A stretch of 62,822 bases of DNA, counting the filler, from Sanchytrium tribonematis (Eukaryota): assembly GCA_018985235.1 (NCBI GenBank). It is 5 parts of 5 records of this genome, joined end to end, with 100 filler letters (N's around TTAATTAATTAA, not from the genome) between each part and the next. Parts side by side here need not be neighbours in the genome. Positions count along the whole stretch, not along the records: positions 1 to 12,556 come from JADGIG010000212.1; positions 12,657 to 25,139 come from JADGIG010000214.1; positions 25,240 to 37,718 come from JADGIG010000215.1; positions 37,819 to 50,282 come from JADGIG010000216.1; positions 50,383 to 62,822 come from JADGIG010000217.1. One strand, given 5' to 3'. The notes under the pieces are model-generated. The model worked only from the letters and a program-made list of their open reading frames with translations. It did no database searches and was not told the origin of the DNA. The position numbers and the translations under genes were made by a program. The first letter of the stretch is position 1, and every line of letters starts with the position of its first letter. Positions 4,000 to 60,263 of the stretch are shown in pieces.

Positions 4000-5215
4000 A
4001 TGAATCAAGAAAACCAGCCTCAACGAGTCTTAGCAGATAAAAGCAATATCAAGCCAGAATATGTTCAAGGCAAAAAGAGGGCTCATGCAGTCATGTTTCT
4101 CGATGCGAAAAAGACTAAAAAGAATAGAATTGATGCAGAGAATCAAGAAAATGCAGAGCCTCCCAAAAAAGTCGCGGAGAAGCCGAAAATTGCTAAAATC
4201 AAACCCATTATTCCTATACCAGTCAAAGAGACAGTTAAAGTAATAGAAAAGGTAACGAAAGAAGTAAAAGTAGTCGTCGAGTCTAAAATTTTACCGGACG
4301 AAAATCAAGAAAATGTTGCTCCTATTAATCCTTTTATCAAGGCAGAATTCGAAAATGATGAGGACGATGACCCTTTGATGTGCGCTGAATATATTTTAGA
4401 TATATTATCCTATCTTCGCAAACAAGAAGTGAAAACCCTCGCAAACGATTACACACATGCTAGTATTTCTACAACTGACAGGTTTCGTATTTCAAACGAT
4501 CTTATTGAAACTCATTATATGTTCAAGCTTTTACCCGAAACTATTTACCTCGCCTGCAACATTTTTGACCGAGTAGTCACTAGCTCAAAAGTATCTCGTG
4601 ACCAAGCAACCGCAGTAATGTTAGTAAGTTTATTAATCGCAGGAAAATACGACGAAGTCTCTCCTCCAACAGTCAGACATATTGTAAGAAGAGCTCATGA
4701 CCTTGGCTTAAAATTTCTTACTCAAGAAAAAGTCTATGATATGGAGAATGAAATTCTCGGCGCAGTTAGTTTTGACTTATCATATCCTAATCCGTTTAAT
4801 TTCTTGCGTCGTGCTTCAAAGGCAGATGATTACAATAGCGAAACAAGAACTGTTGCAAAATATTTTATGGAATTGTCAATTGTCGATCATCGATTGGTTG
4901 CGTATGCACCTTCTCGAATTGCCGCTGCTTCATTTTGGTGTGCTACCATGATCTTGCTAAAATGCAAGTGGGTATATTTAATTTATTTAGTCGGAGCAAT
5001 ATGAGTACTATTCGGGATACACTGAGGCTGCACTTTCAGAACCCGTCAATATTATGTTTGATTGTGTCAAATTTCTGCCGGAAAGATCAGTTCTTTACAA
5101 AAAATACAGCAACAAAAGATACCACAGAGTTGGTTTGTTTGTTAATAATTATGTCCAAGATTATTTGGCAAATGAAATTGATTATTTCGAGGCTATAAAA
5201 AAATTGGTATGTTAG
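4000..5215 (+). CDS. B-type cyclin, join(4000..4971,4991..5215)
   Basis: DPLMCAEY, LLPETIYLACNIFDR, KYDE, YPNPFNFLRRASKAD; removing the 19-nt intron adds the cyclin-B tail W|SEQYEYYSGYTE...KKYSNKRY. Confidence 0.9.
4972..4990 (+). other. 19-nt spliceosomal intron, phase 0 (GTATATTTAATTTATTTAG)
   Basis: GT-AG; removal restores the conserved cyclin C-terminal YYSGYTE/KKYS segment in frame. Confidence 0.88.
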
Positions 5216-5249
5216 TTAAAGGCAAGTAAGTAAATCATGTTTTATACAT

Positions 5250-6044
5250 ATGAAACCTAAGTTTGTGTTAAGGGGACACAAAGGTGCTGTCAAGTCGATT
5301 GACTTGCTAGGCAGCAATTTAATTTCATTTGGATTTGACGGAAATATACTTAATTGGAATCTCAAAACCCGCCGACAAACTGAAATGTGTTATGTGGGAG
5401 AAATAAGATTTGCGAAGGTATGGAAAACTTACATTGTTGTTTTAAACCATGAGAGCTTTAAAACTATTGCCCAAAATGGAGATCTTATAAACGAGATCAA
5501 AATTTTGCCTTCTATCACAAATTTTGATATTTTTGGTAGCACAGCTATATTAAATTTGAATGATACTATTGCTCTTGTAGACCTAAATAATATGAACGTG
5601 TTATCAAGTATCAAACCAGAAATTCCTCCAAGCTCATTTTTATTATTGGATGACTTGATTATTATTGGCCAAGAGGATGGCTCAGTGATGCTGACCGATC
5701 GCAACTTAAGATGCATTAAAATTCAAAATTGTCATGTCGAACCTGTTCTTGCGTTATGCTTTCACGAAGGCGTTGTTTTTTCTGGTGGACCCGACTATTT
5801 TATTTCCAAATATACTCAAGGTTCAACCGATCAAATTGTACTTCCGAGTAACGGAACTAGTGCTATAGCATTTGACGGCCAATTTGTATATGTATCTGGA
5901 TGGAAAGGCTTGTACGTTTTAAACAACTCCGGGGTGGTGGATTTCTTTCCAACAAAGCAGCCCTGTACAGTCATCAAAATCATTGACAATTTATTAATTT
6001 TGGCATGTGAAGACTCAAGAATATACGCATTTGATTTACTGTAA
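5250..6044 (+). CDS. WD40-repeat protein (Asa1/GNB1L-like)
   Basis: N-terminal PKFVLRGHKGAV, WD repeats, C-terminal LACEDSRI. Confidence 0.6.
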   Translation: MKPKFVLRGHKGAVKSIDLLGSNLISFGFDGNILNWNLKTRRQTEMCYVGEIRFAKVWKTYIVVLNHESFKTIAQNGDLINEIKILPSITNFDIFGSTAILNLNDTIALVDLNNMNVLSSIKPEIPPSSFLLLDDLIIIGQEDGSVMLTDRNLRCIKIQNCHVEPVLALCFHEGVVFSGGPDYFISKYTQGSTDQIVLPSNGTSAIAFDGQFVYVSGWKGLYVLNNSGVVDFFPTKQPCTVIKIIDNLLILACEDSRIYAFDLL

Positions 6045-6548
6045 GCTATACTCTATCAGATTTTCAAGCTGGCTGAAATTTGTACCATATGAGACTCCAG
6101 TATCTATAGTTTCCATCTCTCCACTTAGTTTGAGTGCCTGTATATGGTCTGATGTAAAAATGATACCTGAATCCATTTCGGGTTCCGCTTTGTGAAAATT
6201 AGTGCTGCTGATGATGTTTTGAATTTTAGGGAAATTGGGCTTTAATTGAAGCAAATAAAGCTCATAATATTGAATGACTTTTTCACAGTAATCGATTTCT
6301 GTTTTTGACATGTTGTGCTTGAAATTTTCAAGTAAATAATAAGGATATTTTTCAATCTTCTGCGTTCTGGTTACTTTGTATTGATTTATCAGATACTCAT
6401 TTCGCAAAATATCGTATTGAAGCACATCGTCATCTATTCTATCAGTGTTGAGTTTGGCTTTATCAATTCTTTGCTCAAGTTCCTCGACATCTTTGTGGTA
6501 CGGTTCAAGATGAGGATGTAATCTTTCATGATGAAGTGCTGCAAACAT
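6036..6548 (-). CDS. SLD5: GINS complex subunit Sld5
   Basis: ERLHPHLEPY (E..AP.LLPY-like) and YLINQYKVTRTQKIEKY (Y.R.R..KIEK) pattern; shortened and divergent. Confidence 0.7.
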   Translation of the reverse strand: MFAALHHERLHPHLEPYHKDVEELEQRIDKAKLNTDRIDDDVLQYDILRNEYLINQYKVTRTQKIEKYPYYLLENFKHNMSKTEIDYCEKVIQYYELYLLQLKPNFPKIQNIISSTNFHKAEPEMDSGIIFTSDHIQALKLSGEMETIDTGVSYGTNFSQLENLIEYSLQ

Positions 6549-6683
6549 TGGGGGTGATGGCGAAAACCTATTTGAATTATTTACGGCTTTTGCAAAGTGA
6601 GGAAGTGGTCCGAAAATTAGTCATAATGCCTCAATGAGCCATTGTCGAAAAACGATAATATTCAATTCCTAGGTTAGTTTTAC

Positions 6684-7166
6684 ATGACAAAGGAGGTACA
6701 GCTGGCATCTGTGAATCTTTATGGGGAAGCCATAACTATGAAAATTCCTAAACAATACTATTCTATTGCACAAATAAGACAAGTCCCTGATAATCAAGAA
6801 GTTTATGTATATGAGGATGACAGTATTATTATCGAGCTGTTAGAATGTGCCGAGAAAAATACTGCTACAGAAGCTATCAGTTTTCATTTTGACGTCATAA
6901 AAGAGGATAATGAAGCAACTGATTCAAAAGTGGATCTATTGGAAGAAATCGCGGTTCCGATAATCGAACAGGGTGGTTTCGGGGCCGTATTAATCGGACA
7001 TCAAGTGGTAAATGAGAAAGAAATTGAAATGGGGATTGTTATGCTGAGGATTCATAATGTAGAAACGGATATAGTGATTACTTGGCATTCCAAGGAAGTC
7101 TCCAGGGATGTTTTAATGCAATTTGCTGAATCAATGGTGATCAATGACTGGAATTTATTTCAGTAA
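6684..7166 (+). CDS. MOG1: Ran guanine nucleotide release factor Mog1
   Basis: LYGEAI..IP, RQVPDNQEV, SIIIELLE, TDIVIT. Confidence 0.9.
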   Translation: MTKEVQLASVNLYGEAITMKIPKQYYSIAQIRQVPDNQEVYVYEDDSIIIELLECAEKNTATEAISFHFDVIKEDNEATDSKVDLLEEIAVPIIEQGGFGAVLIGHQVVNEKEIEMGIVMLRIHNVETDIVITWHSKEVSRDVLMQFAESMVINDWNLFQ

Positions 7167-8577: not shown

Positions 8578-8735
8578 TTCTCCGTTGTACTGGAAGATAA
8601 CTTTATGAACAGAACAGACAAATTGCTGTTATATGATTGGACAGAAATTCTGTGATGTCTGCAATTTTCTTGGCGATGGATTGGTACAAGAGTCGTTTAC
8701 CAAAAAAGTGCTTAGAATCTATTTTTCGGACTAGT

Positions 8736-11294: not shown

Positions 11295-11316
11295 AATATA
11301 AAACAGGGGAAAATAA

Positions 11317-12183: not shown

Positions 12184-12211
12184 TGAAAATCAAGGGGTCT
12201 GAAGCTGATAC

Positions 12212-12656: not shown

Positions 12657-12782
12657 CTGAGTCAGATATAGATGGAGATGGTAAGCTTTCATATGCAGAA
12701 TTTGAGCATGTCATTCAGAGGTCTCCAAATTTTAGGAAGTAACTTTATTTAATTCAGCACTTTTACAATAAGACTCGTGTAA
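12657..12782 (+). CDS. CIB-family (calcium- and integrin-binding-like) EF-hand protein, 3' end only, join(<12657..12738,12758..12782)
   Basis: Not in ORF track; spliced translation ESDIDGDGKLSYAEFEHVIQRSPNFRNTFTIRLV* is an EF-hand plus CIB-type tail. Confidence 0.8.
12739..12757 (+). other. 19-nt spliceosomal intron, phase 2 (GTAACTTTATTTAATTCAG)
   Basis: Contains in-frame TAA; removal yields the CIB-type C-terminus SPNFRNTFTIRL. Confidence 0.82.
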
Positions 12783-12787: not shown

Positions 12788-13494
12788 TCAGTTCATGTTA
12801 ATTTTTTTAAACGACAATGCTTTATAGTTTTCATAAAGAGAGTCTATAAACTCATGGTCCTAAATTAATAACATAGCACCTGTAATATCCGGATCAATTC
12901 GCTTTCGAAGGAATATCGATCAAGTGGATTATAGTAATTTACCATGTATTCTGCCACATTAGATTTGACCACCTTTTGAATCTTTTCAGGCTCTGTTTCT
13001 AGTTCGACTTGTACTTTCGATTTTGCTCGTTGTAAAAGATCCATCAAAACATTACTGTTATCAGATCGATCTTCAAAGCCGGGAGGCCTATCCATTTCTG
13101 GTGTGGGTGGGTTCTCTGCCATTGTAATACCTTTCTGGGTGAACGAATACATCGTTTCTCTTTCTATGGAGTCGTGAATCCAAATTCCATATATTTTTTC
13201 TTTATCTTGAATCATAATATAGGGATCTTTATAGGTTACAACACAGTTTAAAAGTTCCATTTCAAAGTTTTCTAGATCCAATCTATTGAGCAAAAATAAA
13301 CCCGTATAGGAAATCTGACTTTTTCTGTATATAAACATTGGTCCTTCAATATTTAATTTTGACCACTGATTCTCATCTGTCATAAATTCATAAAGTACGG
13401 CATGTGATGCAGTATTCAAAATAGAAAGTATTTGTGCATTGAGACGCTTCAGAACACGCAAATTGATTTGGTATCGCAAATTGGGATGGACCAT
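12788..13494 (-). CDS. DCP1: mRNA decapping factor Dcp1, join(13494..12880,12859..12788)
   Basis: INLRVLKR, ASHAVLYEF, WSKLNIEGPMFIY, LNRL, IYGIW EVH1 domain; spliced tail LIRILQ|DHEFIDSLYENY resembles the Dcp1 C-terminal trimerisation helix. Confidence 0.9.
12860..12879 (-). other. 20-nt spliceosomal intron, phase 0 (GTGCTATGTTATTAATTTAG)
   Basis: CAG|GT donor, same TAATTTAG 3' end as the 19-nt class, in-frame TAA inside; removal restores the D..F+..LY..Y helix. Confidence 0.78.
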
Positions 13495-15133: not shown

Positions 15134-17300
15134 ATGTCTCTTGAAGATTTGACAGCCCCATTGTTATCTCCAAGCCTCAATGACAAGCCTAAAATAGAGC
15201 CATTTAATTCAAAAAGAAAAAATACCATTCAGAAGTTTAAAGGCTTGATTTCGATAATGTTTGGCAAGATTGAAATTGGTATTTTGATTTTGCATTCACT
15301 CTTATTAATATATAGATCTATATTGTCAGTTCAGGTTGCCCAACTTGATGGCTACATCGCAAATTATTTAATTAATCGTAAACTCAACAAATTTCTAGTT
15401 CACATTGGTTATTGGATGATTCTAAGTATCCCTGCAACTTTAACAAATTCGCTGCTCAACTATTTCCAAAACTACTTATCGTTGAGACTAAGAAATAATT
15501 TGACTCATCACATCCACAGCGTATATTTAAAAGATAAACTATTCTACAAAGTTTCTAATCTGGATGATAGAATTAAGAATGTTGATCAGCTAATAACGCA
15601 AGATGTCCTGCTTTTTACAAATCAAATAACAATGGTTTATAGTAATATTTTGAAGCCAGTTTTTGATGTCATAATGTACATGAGGCAATTAAGTTTAAGA
15701 GTTGGGCGGAATAGTGTGCTAGGTATTTTCGGCTGGGTTAATGCAACCTCAGTTATTCTGTATGCAATATCACCGGCATTTGGGTACTTGGTGAAGAAGG
15801 AGCAAATGCTAGAAGGAGAGTACCGTTATACTCATGCGAGATTAATCGAAAATCATGAGGAAATCGCATTGTTTTCTGGATATTATCAAGAAAGAAACAT
15901 ATTAATACGGTCATTTCAACAGCTAATGAAGCATGTCAAAACTATTTACTATAAAAGACTATTCTACACAAGTTTTGAGGAATTCATCATTAAGTATCTA
16001 TGGGGATGTGCTGGACTCATTATGTGTGGTTATCCGGTTTTTGAAAAGCAAATCAATTTTTTCATTCAATTGTTCTCTACCCAATTTAAAACCAACGGCT
16101 TTGCAGGAATTTGGAACGTATTAGGAAATGTGTCACAATTATCAAAATATATGAAAGACAGCAAACAGGGCAAAACTAGAGAGGCTCAAATGGAGATGGT
16201 AGCAAATAGAATGGAGCAATTTACTACAAACAGGCGTCTACTAATGAATGCAAGTGATGCCTTTGGAAGGATTCTGTATAGCTTTAAAGATGTTGCTGAA
16301 CTTAAAGGCTACACTGAACGCGTTCATGAACTAGTGAATGTTTTGGATGATGTAAGCAGAGGTCAGACAGTAAAACAGCTTGTTGGAGGTGACACTCTGA
16401 CAATTGCCAAGAGGAAGCTTTATCTGAGCAGCAGCGACAATTTGCAAAATACTCAACGGGACATTTCTAAATTTGATATTTTGAGAAATCGGGGTACTAT
16501 CAAAGACTCTGAGTATATTCAATTTGACCAGGTCCCTGTAATTTCACCTAATGGTGATGTTTTGCTTCGGTCCTTGAGCTGTTTTATAAAGAGTGGAACA
16601 CATGTTTTAATTATAGGACCAAACGGATGTGGAAAGTCGAGTTTATTTAGAATTTTAGGTGGTCTCTGGCCAGTATACGGAGGAGTTTTGTATAAACCTA
16701 CGGCTCAAGCCTTTTTTTATATTCCCCAACGTCCTTATCTTTCTGCTGGTACTTTCAGAGACCAAATAATTTATCCCCATACTCAAGCTGATATGAAGGA
16801 ATGTACTTTTCTTTAATTTAGTTGGTAAAACTGACACCGATTTGTATAATATTTTAAAAGTTCTCCAAATCGAAGGGTTAGCTGATAAGGAAAAATGGGA
16901 TACTGAAAAAGACTGGAAAGATGTTCTTAGTGGTGGTGATAAACAAAGGATAGCAGCAGCTCGTTTATTTTATCACAGTCCGAAGTTTGCTATTTTAGAC
17001 GAATGTACGAGCGCAGTATCAATGGACGTTGAGAGAATCATATACACTCATGCTAAGAAACTTGGCATAACATTGATGACTGTGAGTCATAGATCTTCGC
17101 TTTGGAAATACCATAATTATGTTTTGCAATATGATGGTAGTGGTGGTTATGTATTTTGTGAGTTGGATGCTGAAAAGAGACTTGCACTTCAGGAAGAAAA
17201 ACAATCAATAGAGCATCAGTTAGCAGGAATTCCAAAAATTGAACAACGTCTTCTTGAATTAACGCAAATGCTTCATGAAAGAAGAAATTCTCCAGTCTAA
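15134..17300 (+). CDS. Peroxisomal ABCD half transporter (Pxa1/Pxa2-like), join(15134..16802,16822..17300)
   Basis: [18 protein letters not shown]...EEIA, Walker [34 protein letters not shown]; the two ORFs are joined by a 19-nt intron. Confidence 0.95.
16803..16821 (+). other. 19-nt spliceosomal intron, phase 1 (GTACTTTTCTTTAATTTAG)
   Basis: In-frame TAA inside; removal gives [21 protein letters not shown] and joins the two halves of the NBD. Confidence 0.92.
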
Positions 17301-20968: not shown

Positions 20969-22096
20969 TCACTTATTCTTTTGGTCTTTAGGATATGCTC
21001 CCAAGTAATGCAAATCCAGACAAAAAGTTGCCAACTCGGTCTGCCGGGTGAGTTCTAATATTTCAAAGACATTTCCATGACACTCCACGAAAAACCAATA
21101 ATGCCATGGTACCTTTCCACTTGGCCTTGAATCAATTTTTGTAAGATTTAAACCGTTTTCTTTGAAAAAACCAAGAGCATCCACCAGAGCTCCAGGCTTT
21201 CTATGGTCGACAGTAAACATAATCAAAGATTTCAGATTTTCTTTAGGAGTCGTTGAAAGTGAAGCCAAAAGTGTCTTAAGATCTTTTTTCGGTTGAATGA
21301 TGAAAAAACGGGTTGTGTTCGGATAGTTGCTGGCATGTTCTTCAATATCTTTAGCGACAATTTGTAACTTATATTTTTCTGCAAGTGACTCGTGGCAAAT
21401 TGCAGCAGAATTGGGATCTCTTGATGCTAACTCAGCACCATGAGCTGTTGAGGAAACTGGACATCTTTGAGCATTAGGCAAATTTTGTGAAAGCCATTGA
21501 CCGCATTGTTGCAATGCTTCTGGATGAGAATAAACCTTTAAAATTCTATTGGCATCTGGGGACACACTAACTATAGAATGGTGTATCTCTATGGAAGTCT
21601 CACCGATAACATAAATGTTGTGGTCAGGGAAACAATCTAATGATTCTTGAACGCTGCCTTTGTAACTATTTTCAAATGGAATTAGACCATATGTGGCTTG
21701 ATTTGTTTCCACTGCTTTGAACACGTCCCTAATAGAGGGTAGAGGAAGGTATGTAACGCTATCTCCAAATCTGCCTTTAGCAGCGGTGTGGGAGAATGTA
21801 CCAATGGGACCCAAACAAGCAATTGTGGTGTCTCGTTGCATATTAATGGAAGCAGACATGATCTCCCTGTATATTGCGATTAAATTTTCAGTCAACATCG
21901 GACCTGAATTGAGTTTGGCTAGCTTTTCAAAAATTTGTTGTTCTCTAGCAGGATAATAAACTGGTGCATCAGAGTCATTATTAATTTGTTTCTTAGCAGC
22001 ACCTATTCGCAAGGATACTTGGGCTCTTTCATTAAGCAGTTGTATGATACGCTGGTCGACCACGTCTATAGTTTCTCTTAAATTATTAAGATCCAT
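20969..22096 (-). CDS. pheA: Bifunctional chorismate mutase (AroQ)/prephenate dehydratase with ACT domain (P-protein)
   Basis: LRETIDVVD..I..LLNERA...PARE; LGPIGTFS, PFENS..GSV, SHPEALQQC, NTTRF; PGAL...NLTKIDSRP. Confidence 0.93.
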   Translation of the reverse strand: MDLNNLRETIDVVDQRIIQLLNERAQVSLRIGAAKKQINNDSDAPVYYPAREQQIFEKLAKLNSGPMLTENLIAIYREIMSASINMQRDTTIACLGPIGTFSHTAAKGRFGDSVTYLPLPSIRDVFKAVETNQATYGLIPFENSYKGSVQESLDCFPDHNIYVIGETSIEIHHSIVSVSPDANRILKVYSHPEALQQCGQWLSQNLPNAQRCPVSSTAHGAELASRDPNSAAICHESLAEKYKLQIVAKDIEEHASNYPNTTRFFIIQPKKDLKTLLASLSTTPKENLKSLIMFTVDHRKPGALVDALGFFKENGLNLTKIDSRPSGKVPWHYWFFVECHGNVFEILELTRQTELATFCLDLHYLGAYPKDQKNK

Positions 22097-22145
22097 TGTG
22101 AAAGTACGAAGATTTGTAACAAGGAAAATTTATTGCCAATTGAAT

Positions 22146-22751: not shown

Positions 22752-24852
<2,101 letters not shown>

Positions 24853-26284: not shown

Positions 26285-26578
26285 ATGGATCCGGTTTGGG
26301 AGGAGAATTTGAGGGATTTGCTTGCAACAAATAGCTACTTATTGGATAGACATGAGGATTTTATAAACAGACAATCTCAAATGGAACCCACACTAGATGT
26401 AAACCAAATGTTGATGGATACATTGATGGTAAAGCCGATAAAAAAAATTGTGCCAAAGGCTGCCTCTAAAAGAAATACAGTTATTAAAGACGAGGAAGTT
26501 GATTTACCTAGTAATAAAGATATTCTCGAAATGATGAAACCGCTGAAAGATTTGATAGCAATTAGGAAGCTGAAATAA
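26285..26578 (+). CDS. Small hypothetical protein
   Basis: 97-aa ATG ORF ending in AATAAA-embedded stop; no family recognised. Confidence 0.55.
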   Translation: MDPVWEENLRDLLATNSYLLDRHEDFINRQSQMEPTLDVNQMLMDTLMVKPIKKIVPKAASKRNTVIKDEEVDLPSNKDILEMMKPLKDLIAIRKLK

Positions 26579-26640
26579 AAATTATACAATTGTTGAAAAA
26601 AATTCTTGGTTTTCTACTTTCCTCCGGCTTTCTCCTTGAA

Positions 26641-27899: not shown

Positions 27900-29093
27900 T
27901 TACTCCCACAATTTTAAAGTCTTATCCCAACTAGCAGTCAAAACTTTTGAGGACTCTTGAGGGTGCCATGCACAATCCATGACAACGTCATTGTGTTGCT
28001 TCAATTGCGATACTACTTTTTGTGTCTTCCAGCTCCAAAAGAATAATTTGCCATGAGAATCGCCACTCAATATAAATTTTCCATCCGGCGAAACATTAAT
28101 GTTGCAGCCATAACCTGCAATATCGTGGCCAGAAAATACTCTCTTTTTGGAAATTCTAAATTTATCTTTAGTGCCATAAACTAAAATATTATTTGAGAAT
28201 GATTGGCACAACATCCAATTACCTTCAGGATGCACAACGATGTTCGAAATCGAATTCAAGCCTGGCTCACTTTGATACGAAATTGCCAATGGAACATCGA
28301 ATTCAAAAACCCTCATTGTTTTGTCGTCTGCAGAAGACACAAATCGATTACCTTCATCCAAGAAAGTTAAAGAATTAATTTGTCCCTTGTGTTCTGCGTA
28401 TGTATGAATAATTTCATTTGCTCGAACATCAATTTGATAAATTTTCCTATCACTACATCCAACAAGTAATAGGTTTTCTTTTTGTGGATGGAACTTAGCT
28501 ACGTAGGGAATGCGATCAATTGTCCACGTAAAAATAGATTTTTCTTTCGAAATATCAAATATTTTGACATACTTATCAAAGGAAGCGCTTACAATCTTAT
28601 TTCCAGTGTGACTCCAATTTACATCTCGGACTCCCTTATTGTGACCAGCAATTGTAATGAGACATTGTCTTTCTTTATATATTTCCCATAATTTAATAGT
28701 ACAATCCATCGATGCAGAAGCAAATATATGACCATAGTTTGGGATAAATCTAGAGCAATTTACACCTTTCTTGTGACCTTTATAAGTAAATATACATTTT
28801 CTAGGCAATGTGCAAACTTGTTCATTTCCCACAGGTTTGAAATGATATTCCGATTTAGGCAGTTCAAGAACTGGTACATCGAAATGCTTTATATACTGTT
28901 CACTACCAGGTGTTATGTTTTGCTTTGATACTTGGACTTTCTCTGATTTAATGGTGTCAATCATAATCTCCTGTTCGATTTCTCGTTTCTTGTTGCGTTG
29001 CATAAGATTATACAGCTTGGGATTCATATTTACAAATTGATTACTTTGCTGTTGCTCTTCTTCTGAACTTGAGTAACCAACGATATTCATCAA
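27900..29093 (-). CDS. CDC40: Pre-mRNA splicing factor Prp17/Cdc40 (WD40)
   Basis: LPRKCIFTYKGH, RFVSSADDK, FSGHDIAGYGC, WHPQESSKVLTASWD. Confidence 0.93.
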   Translation of the reverse strand: MMNIVGYSSSEEEQQQSNQFVNMNPKLYNLMQRNKKREIEQEIMIDTIKSEKVQVSKQNITPGSEQYIKHFDVPVLELPKSEYHFKPVGNEQVCTLPRKCIFTYKGHKKGVNCSRFIPNYGHIFASASMDCTIKLWEIYKERQCLITIAGHNKGVRDVNWSHTGNKIVSASFDKYVKIFDISKEKSIFTWTIDRIPYVAKFHPQKENLLLVGCSDRKIYQIDVRANEIIHTYAEHKGQINSLTFLDEGNRFVSSADDKTMRVFEFDVPLAISYQSEPGLNSISNIVVHPEGNWMLCQSFSNNILVYGTKDKFRISKKRVFSGHDIAGYGCNINVSPDGKFILSGDSHGKLFFWSWKTQKVVSQLKQHNDVVMDCAWHPQESSKVLTASWDKTLKLWE

Positions 29094-39909: not shown

Positions 39910-40743
39910 TTAAGGGATCATATGCGAGTTTTTCGAGAAAGGATTCTTTTCATCTGGCTTCATGACAGAGAACGAGTGATTCACATGTGAATGTGTTGCT
40001 TCATCAGCTCGAATTGCATAAATTACATCTTTCATTGTAGCGTCTTTTTCCAATCTCCAATAGTGGATAGCAATCTCGGGCGCTGCACGATCTTTCCATA
40101 AATTGCCTTCCTCAATGTCTTTTAACGCATGAGTGTATGTTTTCACAGCTTCTTCTTCCAAATACCCTACCATCGCGTGGCAAACTTTGGGACTTAACAA
40201 ATATGCCAAAAAATAAATGTTATAGAATAACCCTTGGGTCAAAATCACCATTGCGCGAAATACGCCAGTGGGTTGCTTGATTTTAAGGAAAGTAAGAAGA
40301 TGCATTCTCTCATTTTCTGCTTCCTCTAATAAAGTGTGAATCCAAGCATTGTCTCTTTTCATCAATCTTAAACTTCTCAAGTGTCTTAATGATGCAGCTA
40401 CCATACCAGGGCAGCCTGCCACTGTTTCTAAGAAAATCATTCTTTGAAGCCATTTGTGTTCATTCATGTTCTTAGGGTAGCCTGTAGCCAAGTCAAATGA
40501 TCCACGAAGCAGCTTAATACCATAAAATCCGACTTTTTGATGCCATTTCTCTGGCTTGAGATGTTTAGGCTTGATACTTTTTACATAATCCGTAGAATAG
40601 ACTGGGTGCATCAACAAATAATCTTCCTCTACAGGTGCTACTTTATTTTCCTGTGTAGCTACCTTATGGATCTGATTGAATCTCTTCTGAGTCAGGCTTA
40701 AAGCACTTGGACTATAAATTTTAGGAAAAAGTGAACGAAACAT
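39910..40743 (-). CDS. AOX: Mitochondrial alternative oxidase
   Basis: LETVAG.PGMV, EAENERMHL, LEEEAV.TY, RADEA.H diiron motifs; presequence-like start MFRSLF at 40743. Confidence 0.97.
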   Translation of the reverse strand: MFRSLFPKIYSPSALSLTQKRFNQIHKVATQENKVAPVEEDYLLMHPVYSTDYVKSIKPKHLKPEKWHQKVGFYGIKLLRGSFDLATGYPKNMNEHKWLQRMIFLETVAGCPGMVAASLRHLRSLRLMKRDNAWIHTLLEEAENERMHLLTFLKIKQPTGVFRAMVILTQGLFYNIYFLAYLLSPKVCHAMVGYLEEEAVKTYTHALKDIEEGNLWKDRAAPEIAIHYWRLEKDATMKDVIYAIRADEATHSHVNHSFSVMKPDEKNPFSKNSHMIP

Positions 40744-40840
40744 TGGATATCTTGTTTCACAAGAATCCGAATGGAGTTTCTCTTTCACGCGATGCCGATG
40801 CCTGTTCCGAATCTACTTGTCAACGTACGAAATCAATTGT

Positions 40841-44151: not shown

Positions 44152-44469
44152 TCACTGTTTATTGGTCAATTGATATAAAACTGGTACATCTGCAGCAGAT
44201 AAATTGAGATGTTCAGCGATTACATTTGGATCCTGTTTCTGACTACCAGATTCACTTTTAAATACACTGAGTGTGTGAACGTAACCATGGAAACTCAAAT
44301 ATTCGTAAATTAGACTATTTATCAATTCAGAGGAAGTGTCAGTATCTACTGGATCGTGTTCCTGAAGTAGCAACTGAAAAGCTTGCTGTTTTAAAGAAGC
44401 CTGTATCTTGTTCCATTCACCATTTAATTTCAAATGATTTCGAAATGAATTTTCAAATTCGTTTGACAT
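44152..44469 (-). CDS. LisH/FOP-dimerisation centriolar protein FOR20 (FOPNL/CEP20)
   Basis: L...G...KI.A.L....F..L; LINSLIYEYLSFHGY.HTLSVFKSESG; VPVLY. Confidence 0.82.
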   Translation of the reverse strand: MSNEFENSFRNHLKLNGEWNKIQASLKQQAFQLLLQEHDPVDTDTSSELINSLIYEYLSFHGYVHTLSVFKSESGSQKQDPNVIAEHLNLSAADVPVLYQLTNKQ

Positions 44470-44494
44470 TCGTTTGGGTTTCAGTTAATTTTAA

Positions 44495-47456: not shown

Positions 47457-48549
47457 AATTACTGTTTCAAGGAACTGTCTATGAATGGAACATTTGAAGG
47501 AATAGTCAGGCAATCAACAGGTGCAACAAACATATGCTGAATTACCGATGGCTAATATATCAATCGGCAGGCTATAATATCAGATTATCGTTATTTTTGA
47601 ACCAAATGAGCTAAAAGAGAAAGCCACTAGTCTATTCTCAGACTGCTACGATATTTACAATCGAACTTTAAAATTTTGAAAAGATTTTATTGATTTTGAA
47701 CTAGGAAACGAGAGTTGTAGCTGTAATTATTTTTTGGTGTCTGACCAAAAGTTTGTAAAAAGTACAACAGATTGGAGAAGCATTAAACAAAAATTCATTC
47801 GATATTTCTAAACACGTTTGACTAAAAGTTCGCCTTCTACTATGCCTTCTCTTCACCTTTGAATTAAATTTATTATTATTTGTGAATGTTTAAAATCGTT
47901 TAATATTTCATGGATACGACAGATTTCTTGAGTCTTAATGAATTGTTAAAAGGCCCCTACCTAATTTGTTTTTCATATCTCTGAACGACGTGGCATCCAT
48001 ATTTCGCTTTGTCAAAATGATAAAGGAAATGATTTCGTACAACTCCGGGAACATTTACAAGTATTGAGGTGTGTCTCCACAGCCAAAAAAACCAGTTGGC
48101 GATCAAGTGGTATTTCATTCTAACAGATTTCACAAGTGTCAAATCAGATATATAACTAAATATTACGTATTCTATACCGGGTAAAAAATAAATTTAAAGA
48201 TTTTGTTCTCTTAAAAATTAATTATGATGTTCAAATCGGATATGAAGTGAGCCTGCATGGTCAATAAGAAGCTTCACCGGCATATTTTTCGCAAAATGAA
48301 AGTTTGAGGCTCAGGAATATTTTACTAACGTCTCAAGCTGTAATTGAAATGGAAGGCGGGAAACACAATGGTGCATCTCGGACATAGATGACAACGTATC
48401 ACAAAGGTCCGACAAACATAAAATTTTTAAGGTTATACTCGATTTAAAGTAATATTTAATATCATACTCTGATTTAATTGTTTTCAAAAAGAATACCTTT
48501 TAAAAAGTTCCTACAATGGGATATTTGAATCCTTGTAGCAAGCCATGTT

Positions 48550-52302: not shown

Positions 52303-54571
52303 ATGGCAACAACCGCCAGTAAGAATTTTAAAAATCAAACAAATGCTGTTGAGGATGGTGATTTAAACCACTCTCCTGTCTATCGAGCAAATCCACAAAA
52401 TATGAATGGACAAGGCGCAACCTTAACCAGCAAATTATACAAAGCTCATCCCACCATGGAAAATGTAGACTCAATTCACACAGCCTTTAAATATGGATAC
52501 AATTTGGGCCCTAACAATCGATGTCTGGGAAGAAGGCAGGCAAATGGCTCTGATTTTTTGAAAAAATACAAGTGGTATTCATATGATGACATTGAAATTC
52601 TTCGAAATGCCTTAGGGAGCGGATTGATGCAACTAAGTGAAAACTACTGTGCTAATAATTTACCAGATTCAAAAAAATTCGAAAAAGGAAAAGAATTGAC
52701 GTCTGAAGCTTTAAGAAACATAGGAATCATGAGTATCAATAAGCCAGAATGGACAGTTTTTGATTTGGCATGTGCGGCCTACTCTAGGGTTAATGTTCCT
52801 ATATATGACACTTTTGGAGAAGATGCTATTGAACACATTATCAATCACGCAAACTTGGGAATTGTCTTGGCCACAGCAGACAAGCTTCAAAGCATCCTAT
52901 CTTGTGCAAAAAAATGTCCTTGCCTTAAGGTAGTAGTCTGCATTGATTCCTTTAGTGAGGCAGATCAGCTTGAGAGCTTTTTGAAGCTAGATAACTCTCA
53001 CCTTCAAATTTTCAAAAACGGAAAAATCTCATCTCCAAAATATAGCTCTGTATATAAAACACCATCTGAAACTGTTCCGCTGACGTCTGCTAAATTGAAG
53101 GACTACCTTCTGCTTCTAAAATCTTGGGCCATTAGCAATAATGTAAAATTTCTTACCTTTGAGGAAGTTTTACATTTAGGTCGCAACAAGCCTGTTCCAC
53201 ATATACCTCCTCTTCCAACAGACATTGCTACAATTTCTTATACCTCTGGTACAACTGGTATGCCTAAAGGTGTAATTTTATCACACCTAAATTTTGCATC
53301 GACCATTCAGTTTCCAGTCTTTGCGAATTTTAAATTTATGCCCGAAGAAGATTGCTTAATAAGCTATTTACCCCTAGCACATATTTTCGGTCGAGTTTGT
53401 GAGCTGTCTATTCTTGTTTGCGGTGCAAGGGTTGGATATTATAGTGGCGATGTTCTCCGTTTAGTTGAAGATATTCAAATTTTGCAACCAACATTTTTTC
53501 CTTCAGTTCCTAGACTACTGAATAGAATATACATACAAATACAGGAAGCTACAGTGAAAAGATCTGGAATTCTGGGATATTTGTTCAGAAATGCATTTGC
53601 TACTAAGATTGAAAATTTGAAACATAGGCAAAATTGGCACACTCTTATCGATAATTCACCTCTTTTTTCCAAGTTAAGAGCAATTCTTGGTGGTAAATTG
53701 AAGGTGGTAATTACAGGAAGCGCACCTATCGATGACTCTGTATTGACTTTTCTAAGAGCTTGTTTTGGATGTATATTTGTACAAGGGTATTTGTATTTAA
53801 TGAAGTTATGGGCAAACAGAAACATGTGCCGGAAGTTGCGTCTCTCTTCTTGATGATTATGATGCAGGACACACAGGGGTCCCAATTCCCTGCAATGAAA
53901 TTCGATTAGAAAGTGTACCGGAAATGAACTATAATGTTACAGATAAGCCTTTTCCTAGAGGTGAAATTCTGTACAGAGGCTACAACGTATTTAGTGGTTA
54001 CTGGAGGGATCCTCAGAAAACGAAAGAAGCACTCAAGGATGGATGGCTTTATTCTGGTGATATTGGCTCAATGGATAAATACGGAAGACTCCGAATCATT
54101 GATCGAAAAAAAAATATTTTCAAGCTTTCTCAAGGAGAGTATATTGCTGTAGAGAAAATTGAGGGTGTTTATGCAAAAAATAGTAACGTCATGCAAATTT
54201 TTATTTACGGGGACTCATTGGAAAGTTATTTAGTGGCAATTGTTGTTCCAAACCCTCCCGTGTTTGCTCAGTTGGTTCAAAAATTAAAGAATGTGACAAT
54301 TTCAGTACCACTAGATGCCACCAAGGCATATTTAGAAACTAACTTTCAAAAAATGTGCGAAGATCCAGCAATATCTGATGCCATTTTCGCTTCACTAAGT
54401 GAAACAGGCTCTAAAGCTAGTTTGAAAGGATTTGAGCAGATTAAAAAGATAAAATTGATTGCGGAACCGTTTTCAATCGAGAATGGGTTGATGACACCAT
54501 CATTCAAAACTAAAAGAAATGAAGCCAAAGTTTTTTTTCAAAACCAAATCAAAGAAATGTACGGAAAATAA
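52303..54571 (+). CDS. Long-chain acyl-CoA synthetase, join(52303..53786,53806..54571)
   Basis: YTSGTTGMPKG, SYLPLAH, TGSAP, QGYGQTE (after splicing), PRGEI, GWLYSGDIG, IIDRKKNIFKLSQGEYIA. Confidence 0.96.
53787..53805 (+). other. 19-nt spliceosomal intron, phase 2 (GTATTTGTATTTAATGAAG)
   Basis: Removal rebuilds the adenylation motif QG|YGQTE. Confidence 0.95.
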
Positions 54572-54579
54572 ATTTATTA

Positions 54580-56490: not shown

Positions 56491-56536
56491 CAATTGCAAA
56501 ATTCCAACACATATTTAAATTATGAATTTGCGCATT

Positions 56537-56617
56537 TGATTGGAAATGTATGATTGGACACGGAACAATTATTGTTGTCGGGAATTTAAAACAAAGGTAT
56601 TTGTACTCAATGATTGG
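56537..56617. promoter_or_regulatory. Three inverted CCAAT boxes (TGATTGG) in a divergent promoter
   Basis: TGATTGG at 56537, 56551 and 56611, matching the NF-Y/Hap consensus CCAATCA. Confidence 0.5.
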
Positions 56618-56703
56618 GTGGTAATTTGGACTTCAACGATATACAATAGCTTCTAATTTTGGGATATTTGATTCTTTCATGAATACTCCTAATTTCATAT
56701 TTT

Positions 56704-58429
56704 ATGTCAGACAAAATAGAGGTTGTCAATAATGAGAAAGAAAATATTAGTCTTTCTAAAAGCAAGCGGCAAGAATTTATAAACCAAATGAATAGTCTTT
56801 TTGAAGATGGACAAAACTATGTGCAAGTAATGAAGGATCTGCAATCAACCATCGAAGAACCCAAGGCGAAAAAAGTAAAGAAAGAGTCCTCATTTGATGG
56901 AACGTTAATGGATTTTCAAGAACTGGGTCTCAAATTTTTGTATAATAGCTGGATGTGTGGCATGAATGGAATTCTTGCGGATGATATGGGTTTAGGTAAG
57001 ACAATTCAATGCTTGGCATTTTTTGCAAAACTTTTTGATGGGAACACAATGGGAAGGGTACTAGTTATTTGTCCTAGTGCTGTTGTCTATAATTGGGTAT
57101 CTGAGGCAGAAAGATTCACGCCAGACATTCCAGTAATTATGTATTTAGGAAACAAAGCTGAGAGAAAAGCACTTTTTGGTAAAATGCCAAAAGATTGTAT
57201 CCTTGTCACTTCTTATCAGATTTACATGAACGATGCCAGTGTTATGAATGCTAGACGATATAATATTTGTGTCGTGGATGAGGCACACAGACTCAAAAAT
57301 CATAGATGTAAACTATCAACATTGATGGATGGAATGATAGCAGACGATAAAATCCTACTTACTGGAACTCCTTTACAAAATGACATTGTGGAATTATGGT
57401 CTCTTTTAAAATTTTGCCTTCCAAATATATTCGATAAGAGTTTCCATATCTTCGAAGATTGGATGGAGGAAATCAAAGATACCAAAGCCAAATCAAAGAG
57501 CGAGCTTGTATTTAAAATGAAAAAAATAATTGAGCCGCATCTTCTACGAAGAATCAAAAAAGATGTGTTTCCGGACATGTTAAACAAAAAGAGTTTCTTG
57601 GTTTATTGTCCAATGACAAAACATCAAAAGCACTTATACGACTCCACTTCAGACGGAGAAAAATTGAAGTCCTGCATACTCGAATATTTGGGATCATATG
57701 ACAAATTGGAAAGAACTTTGAAAGTGGCATTTGGAAAAATTAAAGCTGCTTCAGAAACTATGAGACAATTAAAAATTTGTTGCCATCCATTTTTGTACCC
57801 TGTTCTAGACATTAAAAGACCATTTGAATTGTATGAGGGGAGTGGGAAGTTCTGTGTATTGTTCCAGCTTCTAAGAAACTTGTTTGAAGATAAGGAAAAC
57901 AAAGTTATTATTTTTACTCAATTTGTTGACATAATTTACCTTATCGGAGAGGCCTGCGATTCTTTGGACTGGAAATACTCATTTTTAAGTGGCAATACCA
58001 AATTGGATGAGCGAGAGATTCAGATTGAAAATTTTCAAAATGATCCAGAAAATAGAATTTTCATTGCGACCACTCGAAGCGGTGGTTTGGGATTGAATCT
58101 AACATCAGCAAATCATGTAGTGCTCTATGATCTTGATTGGTATAATTTTATAATTTAGGAACCCACAAATGGACTGTCAAGGTGAAGATCGGGCTCACCG
58201 CTATGGACAGAAGCGGCAAGTATCTGTATATAGATTGATTACAGAAAGTTCGGTAGAAAATAGAAAATTCGACCGCGCCGAATTTAAATTGGAGCTTCAT
58301 AAGCAAATATTGGAAGAAGAGACCGAAAAATACACTATTGTAGGCAAAAAATTTAGAAAACTGCGTAATAATAGCATCGATTTTGAAAATCCTATTCTTG
58401 AAGACGACTTGAAAACGTTATTTATGTAA
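56704..58429 (+). CDS. SNF2-family helicase (HELLS/DDM1/Irc5-like), join(56704..58139,58159..58429)
   Basis: [46 protein letters not shown] (after splicing), EDRAHRYGQ. Confidence 0.9.
58140..58158 (+). other. 19-nt spliceosomal intron, phase 2 (GTATAATTTTATAATTTAG)
   Basis: Removal rebuilds the conserved SNF2 motif YDLDW|NPQMDCQ. Confidence 0.95.
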
Positions 58430-58444
58430 ACTTTGTACAATAAA

Positions 58445-58891
58445 CTATCTTAAAAACAATTTTAATCGAACTGCATCTGAGCCATTCATATAATATCTTT
58501 GCAAATATTTGTCTCTAATGAAACCAAAAGAGGTGTATAATTTCATTGCACCCTTATTTGATAACTCTGTCTCAAGAACTATTTCTTTGACGCCATCAAA
58601 CTTGTGAAAATGTAGTATAGCATGTTTGACTAACTTTTTTGCCAATCCCTGTCTTCTGTAGTGCGGCTCCACTGCCAGCATGGCTATGTACCCACGATTT
58701 CTATCTGATTCCAATCTGCAAATTAATCCTCCTGCCATTTGGTTCTGATCGTCATTGATTATCCAAGTCAATTCGGGCCAATTATGCAAAAAATAGCGGT
58801 ATGTATAAATAGAGTAAGGCTCGCTCAGTGATTTGTTGATAAGATTAACAAGTGGCTCAGTGTCAGTTTGTTGAAATTGCCTAATCTTCAT
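58445..58891 (-). CDS. MAK3: NatC N-terminal acetyltransferase catalytic subunit Mak3/Naa30
   Basis: LSEPYSIYTYRYF..NWP, RGYIAMLAV, LETE..N..A..LY..FGF.RDK.L.RYY.NG.DA.RLKL. Confidence 0.95.
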   Translation of the reverse strand: MKIRQFQQTDTEPLVNLINKSLSEPYSIYTYRYFLHNWPELTWIINDDQNQMAGGLICRLESDRNRGYIAMLAVEPHYRRQGLAKKLVKHAILHFHKFDGVKEIVLETELSNKGAMKLYTSFGFIRDKYLQRYYMNGSDAVRLKLFLR

Positions 58892-58915
58892 AATACAAAG
58901 GAGAAAATACTAGAT

Positions 58916-60263
58916 TTACTGAAAGTGGCTATAAGGTGTTGGGCTACTGGATGTTCGTTTATATTGTTTAGTGGAGTTTTTTGCGGTCAAAACTTTTTTT
59001 GAAGAGGCTCTGGAAGAATTCTTTGAGGGTGGTTTAGGAGTAGGATCATGGTAATCTTGGTTGTAATATAACAGAGGATTTCTGTCAGGTGTCGCATTAA
59101 CTAAGGAAGACGGATCAAAATACGGCACCGGATTCCTGTAAATATCCGGAGAAGACAGTACGGACCCGCCGACTGTTTCTGTTGGTGACGGCATATAATA
59201 TTGAGGCCGCTCACTTTGTATCGGAGAAACTGGCATGTATTGGGGCTGATCAAAAGATGCTGGACCAGGATGTAAATATATATTAGTATCAATAGGTGGA
59301 GGTAATTTTTGATACTGAGGTTGGTACTTATTCAAGGACTGTAAACTTTGCCTTTTGACATCCGCATACTCAAAATATGGATCCTCAACTTGAGGGTACT
59401 TCGGTTGGAGCATTCTTGAATCATTATGCTTCATAAGGTCTCTTTCGCTTATTATGTTGGTTAAACGTTTCTCAATTTTCACTTCTACATATTTCCGAAC
59501 ACTTCCTTGAATCACGCAAAAAAATAAAGGAATCAACAAAATATACGAAATAGCTAAAAATATTAGATTCAACACCCAAGATGCACACACTATTATCATT
59601 GAAAATATCGCCAGATTCTGCGTGTCTGACCAATTATTAGAAATATTCTTGGTGACATCGTATAATACGCCCTGTTTCCACAAAAAATATAGAGCTATAA
59701 AATTAAGAATTCTCCTAGGACCATCAGCTAGCAATAGCCTTAATTAATAATCAATACCGTTTCCAATTGGAAAAGTGGGTGTAAACAAAAAATGCAACAT
59801 GATCCGAAAATGACCTACTTTCTAAAATATGCTTGAAAAAGCAATAATGTTCATATCCCTTAATAGAATAATACCTTTGAGCCAATTTTGATGTGAATGA
59901 CTTTGCAATGTGACCAGACTGAATGATCCGATAAGCACGAATCATGTCAAAGCTTAGTAAAATTAGAGTTATGATAATGCAAAGAATATAAACAGGTGCA
60001 TATAGCATCTTTAAGTAGATTTCAAATGAAAAATTGGAGTTCGTTTTTAATAATGAGTTGAATGAATTCGAGTTAAACGCGGAAATTCCTAAAAATATTC
60101 CAATGAAAATATCGGTCATGAGAATAAATATTGATTTAAATATTAATAGATACATAAATATGTAAGTGATTATGTATTTGAGAGATCTGAAGCGGTCCAA
60201 TTTGATGTCCTCGTATGTATAATTGACTGTGAAATAATTTTTCCATTTATTCACCAAACACAT
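58916..60263 (-). CDS. Kch1/Kch2-like fungal membrane protein, join(60263..59758,59738..58916)
   Basis: A.RII.SG.IA.SF, RYYS...Y..YCFF, VAFFVY..F.NWKR|LLLADGPR..N, I.G....Y...KI.KR; Pro-rich tail. Confidence 0.82.
59739..59757 (-). other. 19-nt spliceosomal intron, phase 2 (GTATTGATTATTAATTAAG)
   Basis: In-frame TGA inside; removal gives NWKRLLLADGPRR and joins two ORFs. Confidence 0.9.

What the first reader, a model, noticed from the sequence alone, without database searches (positions are those of the whole stretch)
4983..59746. Invariant branch-point geometry: T(-8) N A(-6) T(-5) N N A G in all nine introns
Seen: the last 8 nt are TTATTTAG, TAATTCAG, TAATTTAG, TAATTTAG, TAATGTAG, TCATTTAG, TAATGAAG, TAATTTAG and TAATTAAG, so T-8, A-6 and T-5 are invariant. 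The donor is reduced to GTA (8 of 9) with no conserved +5G, there is no polypyrimidine tract, and AAG acceptors are tolerated. Known: this fits a degenerate YTNAY branch site, and Stentor tiny introns also place a conserved A six nt from the 3' end. Inference: a fused branch point/3' splice site giving a 14-nt lariat loop, convergent with ciliates and implying altered U1/U2/U6 pairing and possible loss of U2AF-type recognition.
Basis: partly seen in the sequence, partly recalled or inferred. Interest (0 to 1): 0.85.

Follow-up and report, generated by a model that had tools for sequence, protein, structure and literature searches.

The report
Nineteen-base introns in a sanchytrid fungus
A fungus that groups with the sanchytrid algal parasites interrupts about one gene in six with an intron only 19-20 bases long, whose likely branch-point adenine sits a fixed six bases from the end; this layout is known from ciliates and one yeast, but introns this short appear not to have been described in a fungus.

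Summary
Observation confirmed. Nine GT-AG introns (eight of 19 nt, one of 20) share T-8, A-6, T-5. The A is significant (P=3.5e-4, shuffles); each T alone is weak. The organism groups with the sanchytrid Amoeboradix gromovi (100/100). Relatives' proteins, called from DNA without an intron model, read into the same introns: in 5 of 5 orthologous introns of 19 or 22 nt with a usable register the codon forces A-6 and a pyrimidine at -5, so the signal is anchored to the 3' end. A near-identical relative's record is joined at the predicted junction. Best reading: ordinary U2-type introns with a degenerate branch site fixed just before the AG, as in Yarrowia and Stentor; branching itself is unmapped. 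U2AF loss is not supported: A. gromovi's annotation lists U2AF65, U2AF35, SF1, U1 proteins; Slu7 and Prp18, yeast's minimum-distance ruler, are not found. snRNA changes are untested. Apparently new: this intron size in a fungus, unnoticed because sanchytrid genes were called without splicing, and a 3' positional bias (P about 0.005) opposite to other intron-poor genomes. This scan earlier noted 25-38-nt introns in Rozella and Neolecta, none in sanchytrids.

The parts
4972..4990 (+). 19-nt intron, phase 0, in cyclin B gene (4000-5215); putative branch A at 4985
   Evidence: Frame restored; Pfam Cyclin_C positions 1-64 before, 66-116 after; 4 relatives' proteins break at the same codon
12739..12757 (+). 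19-nt intron near the end of a partial EF-hand gene (12657-12781); putative branch A at 12752; weakest-supported intron
   Evidence: Upstream exon is EF-hand-like, below Pfam cut-off; removal extends the frame by a few codons; otherwise motif only
12860..12879 (-). 20-nt intron with GTG donor, phase 0, in DCP1 gene (12790-13494); putative branch A at 12865
   Evidence: Only the 20-nt removal continues the frame; DCP1 Pfam hit upstream; no Pfam hit for the 22-aa last exon; its likeness to the Dcp1 C-terminal helix is recalled
16803..16821 (+). 19-nt intron, phase 1, in ABCD-type transporter gene (15134-17300); putative branch A at 16816
   Evidence: ABC_tran profile 2-44 before and 82-137 after, in different frames; joined by removal
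22992..23010 (-). 19-nt intron, phase 0, in glutamine:fructose-6-phosphate amidotransferase (GFAT) gene (22752-24840); putative branch A at 22997
   Evidence: 119 of 124 fetched homologues align on both sides with a frame change; spliced form aligns without gap to other fungi; same intron in 4 relatives and a joined form in P0241
31064..31082 (-). 19-nt intron, phase 1, in Sec3 gene (30570-33111); putative branch A at 31069
   Evidence: Sec3_C-term profile 5-214 before and 207-355 after; frame restored
53787..53805 (+). 19-nt intron with AAG acceptor, phase 2, in acyl-CoA synthetase gene (52303-54571); putative branch A at 53800
   Evidence: AMP-binding profile 48-319 before and 319-384 after; frame restored
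58140..58158 (+). 19-nt intron, phase 2, in SNF2-family helicase gene (56704-58429); putative branch A at 58153
   Evidence: Helicase_C profile stops at 94 of 110 at the intron; removal continues the frame for 90 codons; last exon alone has no Pfam hit; the restored helicase motif is recalled
59739..59757 (-). 19-nt intron with AAG acceptor, phase 2, in fungal potassium channel (KCH) gene (58916-60263); putative branch A at 59744
   Evidence: KCH profile 1-145 before and 144-251 after; 68 of 150 homologues align on both sides with a frame change; a relative carries a 7-codon insertion at the same site
27900..29093 (-). WD40 protein, likely the second-step splicing factor Prp17/CDC40; intronless; next to the EF1-gamma gene
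   Evidence: WD40 Pfam hits; A. gromovi has PRP17 annotated as the ORF next to its EF1-gamma; likeness to CDC40 sequence is recalled

Best explanation
These are real 19-20-nt GT-AG introns of a fungus that groups with the sanchytrids, likely removed by the major (U2-type) spliceosome, which would use the invariant A six bases from the end as branch point and the only AG, four bases further on, as acceptor. Shown: the intervals, their GT-AG ends, frame restoration, conservation of intron position in relatives at 19-22 nt, and conservation of A-6 in 3' register. Inferred: SF1/BBP and U2 read TNAT as the AT-rich form of the standard branch site (G-U wobble where C is usual); the donor needs little beyond GT(A) because the U-rich 10-13 nt between donor and branch fix the pairing of ends; branching gives a 14-nt loop (15 in the 20-nt intron, 17 in the 22-nt orthologues) with a 5-nt tail; the acceptor docks at a distance below yeast's normal minimum, likely helped by loss of the Slu7-Prp18 pair, which would also fit the AAG acceptors. 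Length may drift by a few bases on the donor side, the branch-to-AG distance may not.
For: Motif statistics. Pfam halves and homologues joined across the introns. Tree: window with A. gromovi and 4 unnamed records, 100/100. Read-through tails of relatives: register fixed by the next exon in P0121 (19 nt, 11 of 11 residues), P0243 (22 nt, 17 of 20), P0248 (19 nt, 10 of 16), and by the shortest possible AG in P0249 (19) and P0246 (22); in all 5 the codon forces A-6 and a pyrimidine at -5 and allows T-8. In both 22-nt introns position +14 is T, so the A follows the 3' end. A. gromovi GFAT fits 21 nt with T-8, A-6, C-5 if its stop is the acceptor. P0241 is 438 of 441 identical to P0243 upstream and is joined at the predicted junction. 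A. gromovi annotation lists 15 of 19 spliceosomal factors looked up, including Prp8 and the debranching enzyme; not found: Slu7, Prp18, U1C, SF3B6. Yeast: Slu7/Prp18 are dispensable at short branch-to-acceptor distance, Prp18 imposes a 10-nt minimum, and AAG use rises without it.
Against: No RNA reads or lariats were seen; whether P0241 is a transcript or an intronless allele is unknown. Of 10 relatives' tails examined 3 were uninformative or ambiguous (P0244, P0247, P0274); P0244 would have a purine at -5 if it is 18 or 19 nt; P0275 (21 nt) allows but does not force A-6 and has a second TNAY-like candidate further upstream. Orthologous introns are not fully independent. Six 19-20-nt GT..TNATNNAG sites lie in coding sequence that needs no splicing, and their depletion is not significant (6 against 10.8 expected, P=0.06), so the motif alone does not define an intron. 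The protein inventory is from another species, covers only about half of its proteins, and a KO tag alone missed Luc7; the KO and KOG numbers used are recalled.
Confidence: 0.8

Rival explanations
1. One reading: the spliceosome has rewired snRNA pairing (U2 branch-recognition sequence changed to pair Watson-Crick with TTAAT, U1/U6 donor pairing lost) and has dropped U2AF.
For: U at -5 in 9 of 9 and at -9 in 8 of 9, where the standard U2 has G; +5G in 0 of 9. A compensatory U1 change exists in Entamoeba. U1C is not in the A. gromovi annotation.
Against: U2AF65, U2AF35, SF1, U1-70K, U1A/U2B'', Prp40, Luc7 are annotated in A. gromovi. Stentor keeps standard U1, U2, U6 motifs; most lineages with odd donors keep the standard U1. 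The inferred A. gromovi intron has C at -5. 60% T background explains much of the U.
Confidence: 0.12
2. The motif is an extended acceptor read by protein (like the C. elegans TTTCAG) and branching happens at another, variable A (-7, -10 or -11).
For: No branch mapping exists. A at -7 in 7 of 9; an A at -9 to -11 in 7 of 9. U2AF35 and U2AF65 are kept in the relative.
Against: Only -6 is an invariant A, also in 5 of 5 orthologues, where -7 is C, A, A, T, A; T-8 and Y-5 fall in the register of the standard branch motif; two introns have no A from -11 to -8; an earlier branch would make the loop still tighter.
Confidence: 0.07
3. A length ruler from the donor places the acceptor, and the A is simply position +14.
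For: 8 of 9 introns are exactly 19 nt; earlier notes of this scan proposed distance rules for Rozella (unchecked).
Against: Orthologous introns are 19, 21 and 22 nt; in the two 22-nt ones +14 is T and -6 is A; the 20-nt intron keeps the motif in 3' register. A species-level length preference on top of the branch signal remains possible.
Confidence: 0.05
4. The breaks are assembly errors, pseudogene lesions, or non-spliceosomal events.
For: No RNA evidence was obtained; two of the nine rest mainly on the motif.
Against: All nine have GT-AG ends with a single AG; the same positions are interrupted in relatives from separate assemblies with different inserted sequence and length; interiors are not copies of one element (mean 4.8 of 9 matches) and do not fold (MFE -0.7 to -6.6 with flanks); housekeeping genes such as GFAT are otherwise intact.
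Confidence: 0.02

Closest known systems
Stentor coeruleus 15-16-nt introns (PMC9505925, section 2.1 and passages read)
   Same: GUA donor, AU-rich interior, proposed branch A with a 5-nt 3' tail (A at -6), most of the spliceosome kept, under one intron per five genes.
   Different: Stentor: 10-11-nt loop, no branch consensus beyond the A, 5' positional bias, free-living ciliate. Here: 14-15-nt loop, TNAT consensus, 3' bias, a fungus.
Yarrowia lipolytica, Trichomonas, Giardia fused branch point/acceptor (PMC2483917, abstract and sections 9, 10, 15 read)
   Same: Intron-poor genome, no 3' pyrimidine tract, fixed branch-to-AG distance; in Yarrowia 2 nt, which puts the branch A at -6.
   Different: Yarrowia introns are long; that paper expects intron-poor species with short introns to keep strong donor and branch consensus. 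Here the donor is reduced to GTA and the branch to TNAT at 0.16 introns per gene.
Chlorarachniophyte nucleomorph 18-21-nt introns (as summarised in PMC10245619 section 7 and PMC2483917 section 15)
   Same: Same length range, donor largely GT(A).
   Different: Nucleomorph is intron-dense (over 800 introns in about 300 genes) and was reported without branch signature; here introns are sparse with a clear fixed branch motif.
Mikrocytos mackini 16-17-nt introns (PMC10245619, passages and section 7)
   Same: Parasite, very narrow length range, conserved sequence.
   Different: Rhizarian with only 17-19 spliceosomal proteins and no U1 found, no introns in metabolic or transporter genes; the sanchytrid relative keeps U1, U2AF and SF3b proteins, and introns here sit in GFAT, acyl-CoA synthetase and transporters.
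Microsporidian and Rozella short introns (PMC6349667 passages; PMC2483917)
   Same: Nearest lineages with short introns: E. cuniculi mean 35.8 nt, Rozella about 30 nt.
   Different: Longer; E. cuniculi keeps strong donor and branch motifs, and microsporidian introns often lie at 5' ends.
Entamoeba invadens constrained branch point (bioRxiv 10.1101/2022.06.08.495308, passages)
   Same: AT-rich form of the branch motif at a nearly fixed position.
   Different: Branch at -8, strong altered donor with a coevolved U1.

Membership tests
U2-type spliceosomal intron | GT...AG boundaries whose removal restores the reading frame | tested here: met
   9 of 9 GT-AG; frames restored; Pfam or homologue support on both sides for 6 of 9
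U2-type spliceosomal intron | Branch-site motif (YTNAY) upstream of the AG | tested here: met
   TNAT at -8..-5 in 9 of 9, P=3.5e-4 for the A; A-6 and Y-5 forced in 5 of 5 orthologues with usable register
U2-type spliceosomal intron | Removed from the RNA | tested here: inconclusive
   No RNA reads seen; P0241, 438 of 441 identical to an intron-bearing record, is joined at the predicted site, but may be DNA
U2-type spliceosomal intron | 2'-5' lariat at the branch A | not testable with these tools
   Needs lariat sequencing; debranching enzyme is annotated in A. gromovi
U2-type spliceosomal intron | Major spliceosome encoded by the organism | tested here: inconclusive
   Likely Prp17 in the window; 15 of 19 factors in the relative's annotation; no snRNA in the window; own genome not held
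U12-type (minor) intron | Extended conserved donor and branch consensus (recalled) | tested here: not met
   Donor conserved only to +3; two recalled minor-spliceosome KO tags absent from the relative's annotation
Fixed branch-to-AG introns (Yarrowia, Stentor type) | Branch motif at constant distance from the AG whatever the intron length | tested here: met
   Holds at 19, 20 and 22 nt, and fits 21; P0244 and P0275 ambiguous
Intron-poor genomes with transformed signals (Irimia and Roy) | Strong donor consensus | tested here: not met
   4-6 of 8 matches to the standard donor, +5G 0 of 9
Intron-poor genomes with transformed signals (Irimia and Roy) | 5' positional bias of introns (PMC532390) | tested here: not met
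   Relative positions 0.38-0.90, mean 0.76, in the 8 complete genes; P=0.005 against uniform
Sanchytriomycota | Groups with Amoeboradix/Sanchytrium in protein trees | tested here: met
   GFAT tree 100/100 with A. gromovi (one gene, 29 rows chosen from 125); EF1-gamma 62% and cyclin 65% to A. gromovi against 45% or less to named others; EF1-gamma/PRP17 adjacency shared. Species not determined.
Spliceosome with coevolved snRNA (Entamoeba type) | Compensatory change in U1, U2 or U6 recognition sequence | not testable with these tools
   No snRNA in the window; no sanchytrid DNA among 35 metagenome loci

The most novel reading that the evidence does not exclude
Sanchytrids carry the shortest introns of any fungus or animal relative (19-22 nt), spliced by a largely complete spliceosome that has lost the Slu7-Prp18 ruler, so that the acceptor docks five bases after the branch; and, against the rule for intron-poor genomes, their introns are confined to the 3' part of genes (none within 500 nt of a start codon), pointing to a co-transcriptional or selective constraint not described before.
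Probability: 0.3. Interest if true: 0.75.

Novelty: new variant of a known kind. Interest (0 to 1): 0.58.

Why it matters
A 19-nt intron leaves about two bases between the stretch U6 normally pairs with and the stretch U2 pairs with (inference from standard pairing), so it probes the lower size limit of the spliceosome in the same supergroup as yeast and humans, where proteins align well with solved structures. It offers a natural test of the yeast finding that Prp18 sets a minimum branch-to-acceptor distance. It is an exception to two generalisations about intron-poor genomes (strong donors, 5' bias). Practically, the public A. gromovi proteins for GFAT and cyclin B are cut off at these introns, so gene-loss inferences from sanchytrid proteomes called without splicing may include false losses and truncations.

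Tried and rejected
No whole genome is held, so the genome-wide intron logo and snRNA search were not possible. No RNA reads were examined, so splicing is not directly shown. The one metagenome scan gave 35 loci, none close to the clade (best segments 30-47% to the query). Rfam found nothing in the window at E<=1 and two chance hits in the 1.1-kb gap. Motif-bearing candidates rejected as introns because the unspliced frame is the conserved one: 28778-28795-, 41590-41607-, 34908-34927+, 55641-55659-, 62441-62459+, 57133-57148+, 38934-38949-. A search for a one-intron ORF in six of the larger gaps found nothing convincing; in-frame 18- or 21-nt introns without a stop, UTR introns and motif-less 5' introns cannot be excluded. 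Test for avoidance of the motif in coding sequence: not significant. Luc7 first looked absent by KO tag and was then found by name, so I dropped the idea of a stripped U1 snRNP. Tails P0244, P0247, P0274 gave no register; P0273 repeats P0249 and was not counted. Lee et al. 2010 on E. cuniculi introns is not held. Own-genome notes of this scan: none.


Full report
What the window is. Five contig pieces of about 12.5 kb joined by 100-nt spacers, 35% G+C, 92% covered by 56 gene models, median gap 43.5 nt. The genes are eukaryotic and fungal-like. EF1-gamma is 62% and 58% identical to two Amoeboradix gromovi proteins and 45% or less to named proteins of other fungi; cyclin B is 65% to A. gromovi. 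In a GFAT tree of 29 rows (chosen from 125 available: the five closest, and named fungi across phyla) the window, A. gromovi and four unnamed records form a clade at 100/100 on a long branch. EF1-gamma lies next to PRP17 in A. gromovi as in the window. The organism is therefore a sanchytrid or close relative; species not determined.

The observation. Nine GT-AG intervals end in the nine 8-mers listed. Eight are 19 nt, the DCP1 one is 20 nt with a GTG donor. T-8, A-6, T-5 are invariant; each intron holds a single AG; +5 is never G; 2 of 9 acceptors are AAG. Within-intron shuffles (200,000): an invariant A column in 0.035%, three or more invariant columns in 14, at least one invariant column in 13%. 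So the A carries the signal; either T alone could be composition (60% T). In 644 other 19-20-nt GT..AG windows A-6 occurs in 204 and the triple in 14. Independent support for the introns: Pfam profiles continue across the break in cyclin (1-64, 66-116), ABC transporter (2-44, 82-137), Sec3 (5-214, 207-355), acyl-CoA synthetase (48-319, 319-384), KCH (1-145, 144-251); 119 of 124 GFAT, 68 of 150 KCH and 4 of 29 cyclin proteins align on both sides with a frame change. SNF2 rests on a recalled motif; DCP1 and the EF-hand gene on frame extension and the motif itself.

An independent test from relatives. The published sanchytrid proteins were called with TransDecoder on genomic contigs; 'splic' does not occur in that paper's main text and 'intron' only in its references (PMC8371127, passages). 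Such proteins read into introns, so their tails record the intron in codons. Four relatives' GFAT proteins and four cyclin clusters leave the conserved frame at exactly the window's junction, each tail starting with Val; two KCH relatives do likewise. Of these 10 tails, the register is fixed by the next exon read in the shifted frame in three: P0121 19 nt (11 of 11 residues), P0243 22 nt (17 of 20), P0248 19 nt (10 of 16); in two more by the shortest length at which an AG is possible: P0249 19 nt, P0246 22 nt (longer lengths are not excluded). In all five the codon spanning -7..-5 is His, Asn or Tyr, which forces A-6 and a pyrimidine at -5, and T-8 is allowed, while the other intron codons differ between species. 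P0275 has an in-frame 21-nt insertion with T-5 forced and A-6 allowed, but a second candidate motif upstream. A. gromovi GFAT (P0242) fits only 21 nt among 19-22 and then has T-8, A-6, C-5, the standard branch letters; this assumes its stop codon is the acceptor. P0244, P0247 and P0274 are ambiguous; P0244 would break the -5 rule if 18 or 19 nt. In both 22-nt introns +14 is T, so the A is measured from the 3' end. P0241 matches P0243 at 438 of 441 residues upstream and continues straight into the next exon (19 of 20 residues agree with P0243's shifted tail): a spliced or intronless form joined at the predicted site; whether it is RNA is unknown.

The motif is not sufficient. Six 19-20-nt GT..TNATNNAG sites lie in 55.7 kb of coding sequence (10.8 expected from synonymous shuffles, P=0.06); all have four or more G/C inside, true introns three or fewer, and only one starts GTA. 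A U-rich interior appears to be part of the signal.

The machinery. No snRNA is in the window and no genome is held. In Supplementary Data 1 of PMC8371127 (file searched; the A. gromovi sheet of 3,755 rows is held, the second species' sheet is cut at 171 rows; two other supplements were too large to read and may bear on introns) I looked up 19 factors. Found, 15: U2AF65, U2AF35, SF1/BBP (as two adjacent ORFs), U1-70K, SF3B1, Prp8, Prp17, Dbr1, Prp16/22, U1A/U2B'', Prp40, Isy1, Luc7, SF3B2, SF3B4; Cwc22, Cwc25, Snu13, SNRNP40 turned up besides. Not found, 4: Slu7 and Prp18 (by KO, KOG and name), U1C and SF3B6 (by KO and KOG). The tags are recalled, only about half of the proteins are annotated, and small or split genes are easily missed, so absences are leads. 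They fit, though: Slu7 and Prp18 are dispensable at short branch-to-acceptor distance, Prp18 imposes a 10-nt minimum, and without it sites as close as 7 nt and AAG sites gain (PMC10711555 passages; PMC10158995 passages, which also notes both are absent in Cyanidioschyzon without short distances, so loss need not be tied to this geometry).

Mechanism. Shown: boundaries, frames, conserved positions, 3'-anchored A. Inferred: a U2-type reaction with branch at -6, loop of 14-17 nt and 5-nt tail. With the standard U2 sequence (as quoted) the window's branch regions give 2-3 Watson-Crick pairs plus 1-2 G-U wobbles; no change in U2 is needed, though a G-to-A change would turn the wobbles into full pairs and is testable. 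In a 19-mer the standard U6-paired stretch (+1 to +6) and U2-paired stretch (+9 to +15) leave two bases between them, so short donor pairing may be forced by geometry (inference).

Position in genes. In the 8 complete intron-bearing genes (of 49 complete genes; 0.16 introns per gene) relative positions are 0.81, 0.90, 0.78, 0.88, 0.80, 0.66, 0.84, 0.38; P=0.005 for the mean, 0.012 by KS; none lies in the first 500 nt, which hold 42% of the coding sequence (P=0.012). The ninth is 8 codons from a stop. Intron-poor genomes are normally 5'-biased (PMC532390 passages). The test was made after seeing the pattern, n is small, and motif-less 5' introns could be missed; no 19-20-nt motif match sits at a start codon apart from one GC-rich non-GTA site.

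Comparison. Fixed branch-to-AG distance is a known convergence; Yarrowia has the same -6 position and most fungi lack the 3' pyrimidine tract (PMC2483917). Stentor has the same tail with unchanged snRNA motifs (PMC9505925). Introns of 15-21 nt are known from heterotrich ciliates, Mikrocytos and nucleomorphs (PMC10245619). Within fungi and kin the short ones I saw cited are E. cuniculi (mean 35.8 nt; minimum 23 nt recalled) and Rozella (about 30 nt). Nine paper searches (listings only unless cited above; PMC10459994 passages) showed no description of sanchytrid introns or of 19-nt fungal introns; the library lacks most subscription journals.

Verdict. Real and more than chance. It works like the Yarrowia/Stentor fixed-branch introns and is a member of the U2-type class as far as could be tested. 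What appears new is the lineage and size, the weak donor despite intron paucity, the 3' bias, and a possible Slu7-Prp18 loss. New variant of a known kind; interest 0.58.

Noticed in passing
window, nine introns: Introns lie in the 3' part of genes (mean relative position 0.76; none within 500 nt of a start), opposite to the usual 5' bias of intron-poor genomes.
   Followed up: partly
P0121, P0242, P0243, P0246, P0248, P0249, P0275: Intron length at the same position differs among relatives (19, 21, 22 nt), suggesting species-specific preferred lengths; A. gromovi tails allow a more standard donor and branch.
   Followed up: partly
A. gromovi annotation, NODE_116 p11 and p12: SF1/BBP appears as two adjacent ORFs, possibly split by an unrecognised tiny intron.
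   Followed up: no
window 47457-48549: A 1.1-kb stretch without ORF over 80 codons, Pfam or Rfam hit, in a window whose median gap is 43.5 nt; could be a decayed gene or a divergent non-coding RNA.
   Followed up: partly
window 20969-22129 (-): Chorismate mutase, prephenate dehydratase and ACT domain in one ORF; this fusion is typical of bacterial PheA (recalled), so a possible horizontal transfer.
   Followed up: no
window 39910-40812 (-), 44152-44484 (-): Alternative oxidase and a LisH/FOP-domain centrosomal-type protein, in line with an aerobic zoosporic fungus.
   Followed up: no
P0001-P0007; window 26566-27885 (+): The clade has two EF1-gamma types (A. gromovi holds both, P0005 and P0007); the shorter type starts about 120 residues in, which could hide a 5' intron in relatives.
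   Followed up: no
window, about 12.6, 25.2, 37.8 and 50.3 kb: Four 100-nt spacers join five separate pieces; genes next to them are partial and order across them means nothing.
   Followed up: yes
P0253, P0257, P0261, P0266: Four unrelated, unnamed cyclin B proteins (35-42% identity) also leave the conserved frame with a Val right after the same Trp, so this intron position may be old and shared with other fungi.
   Followed up: no
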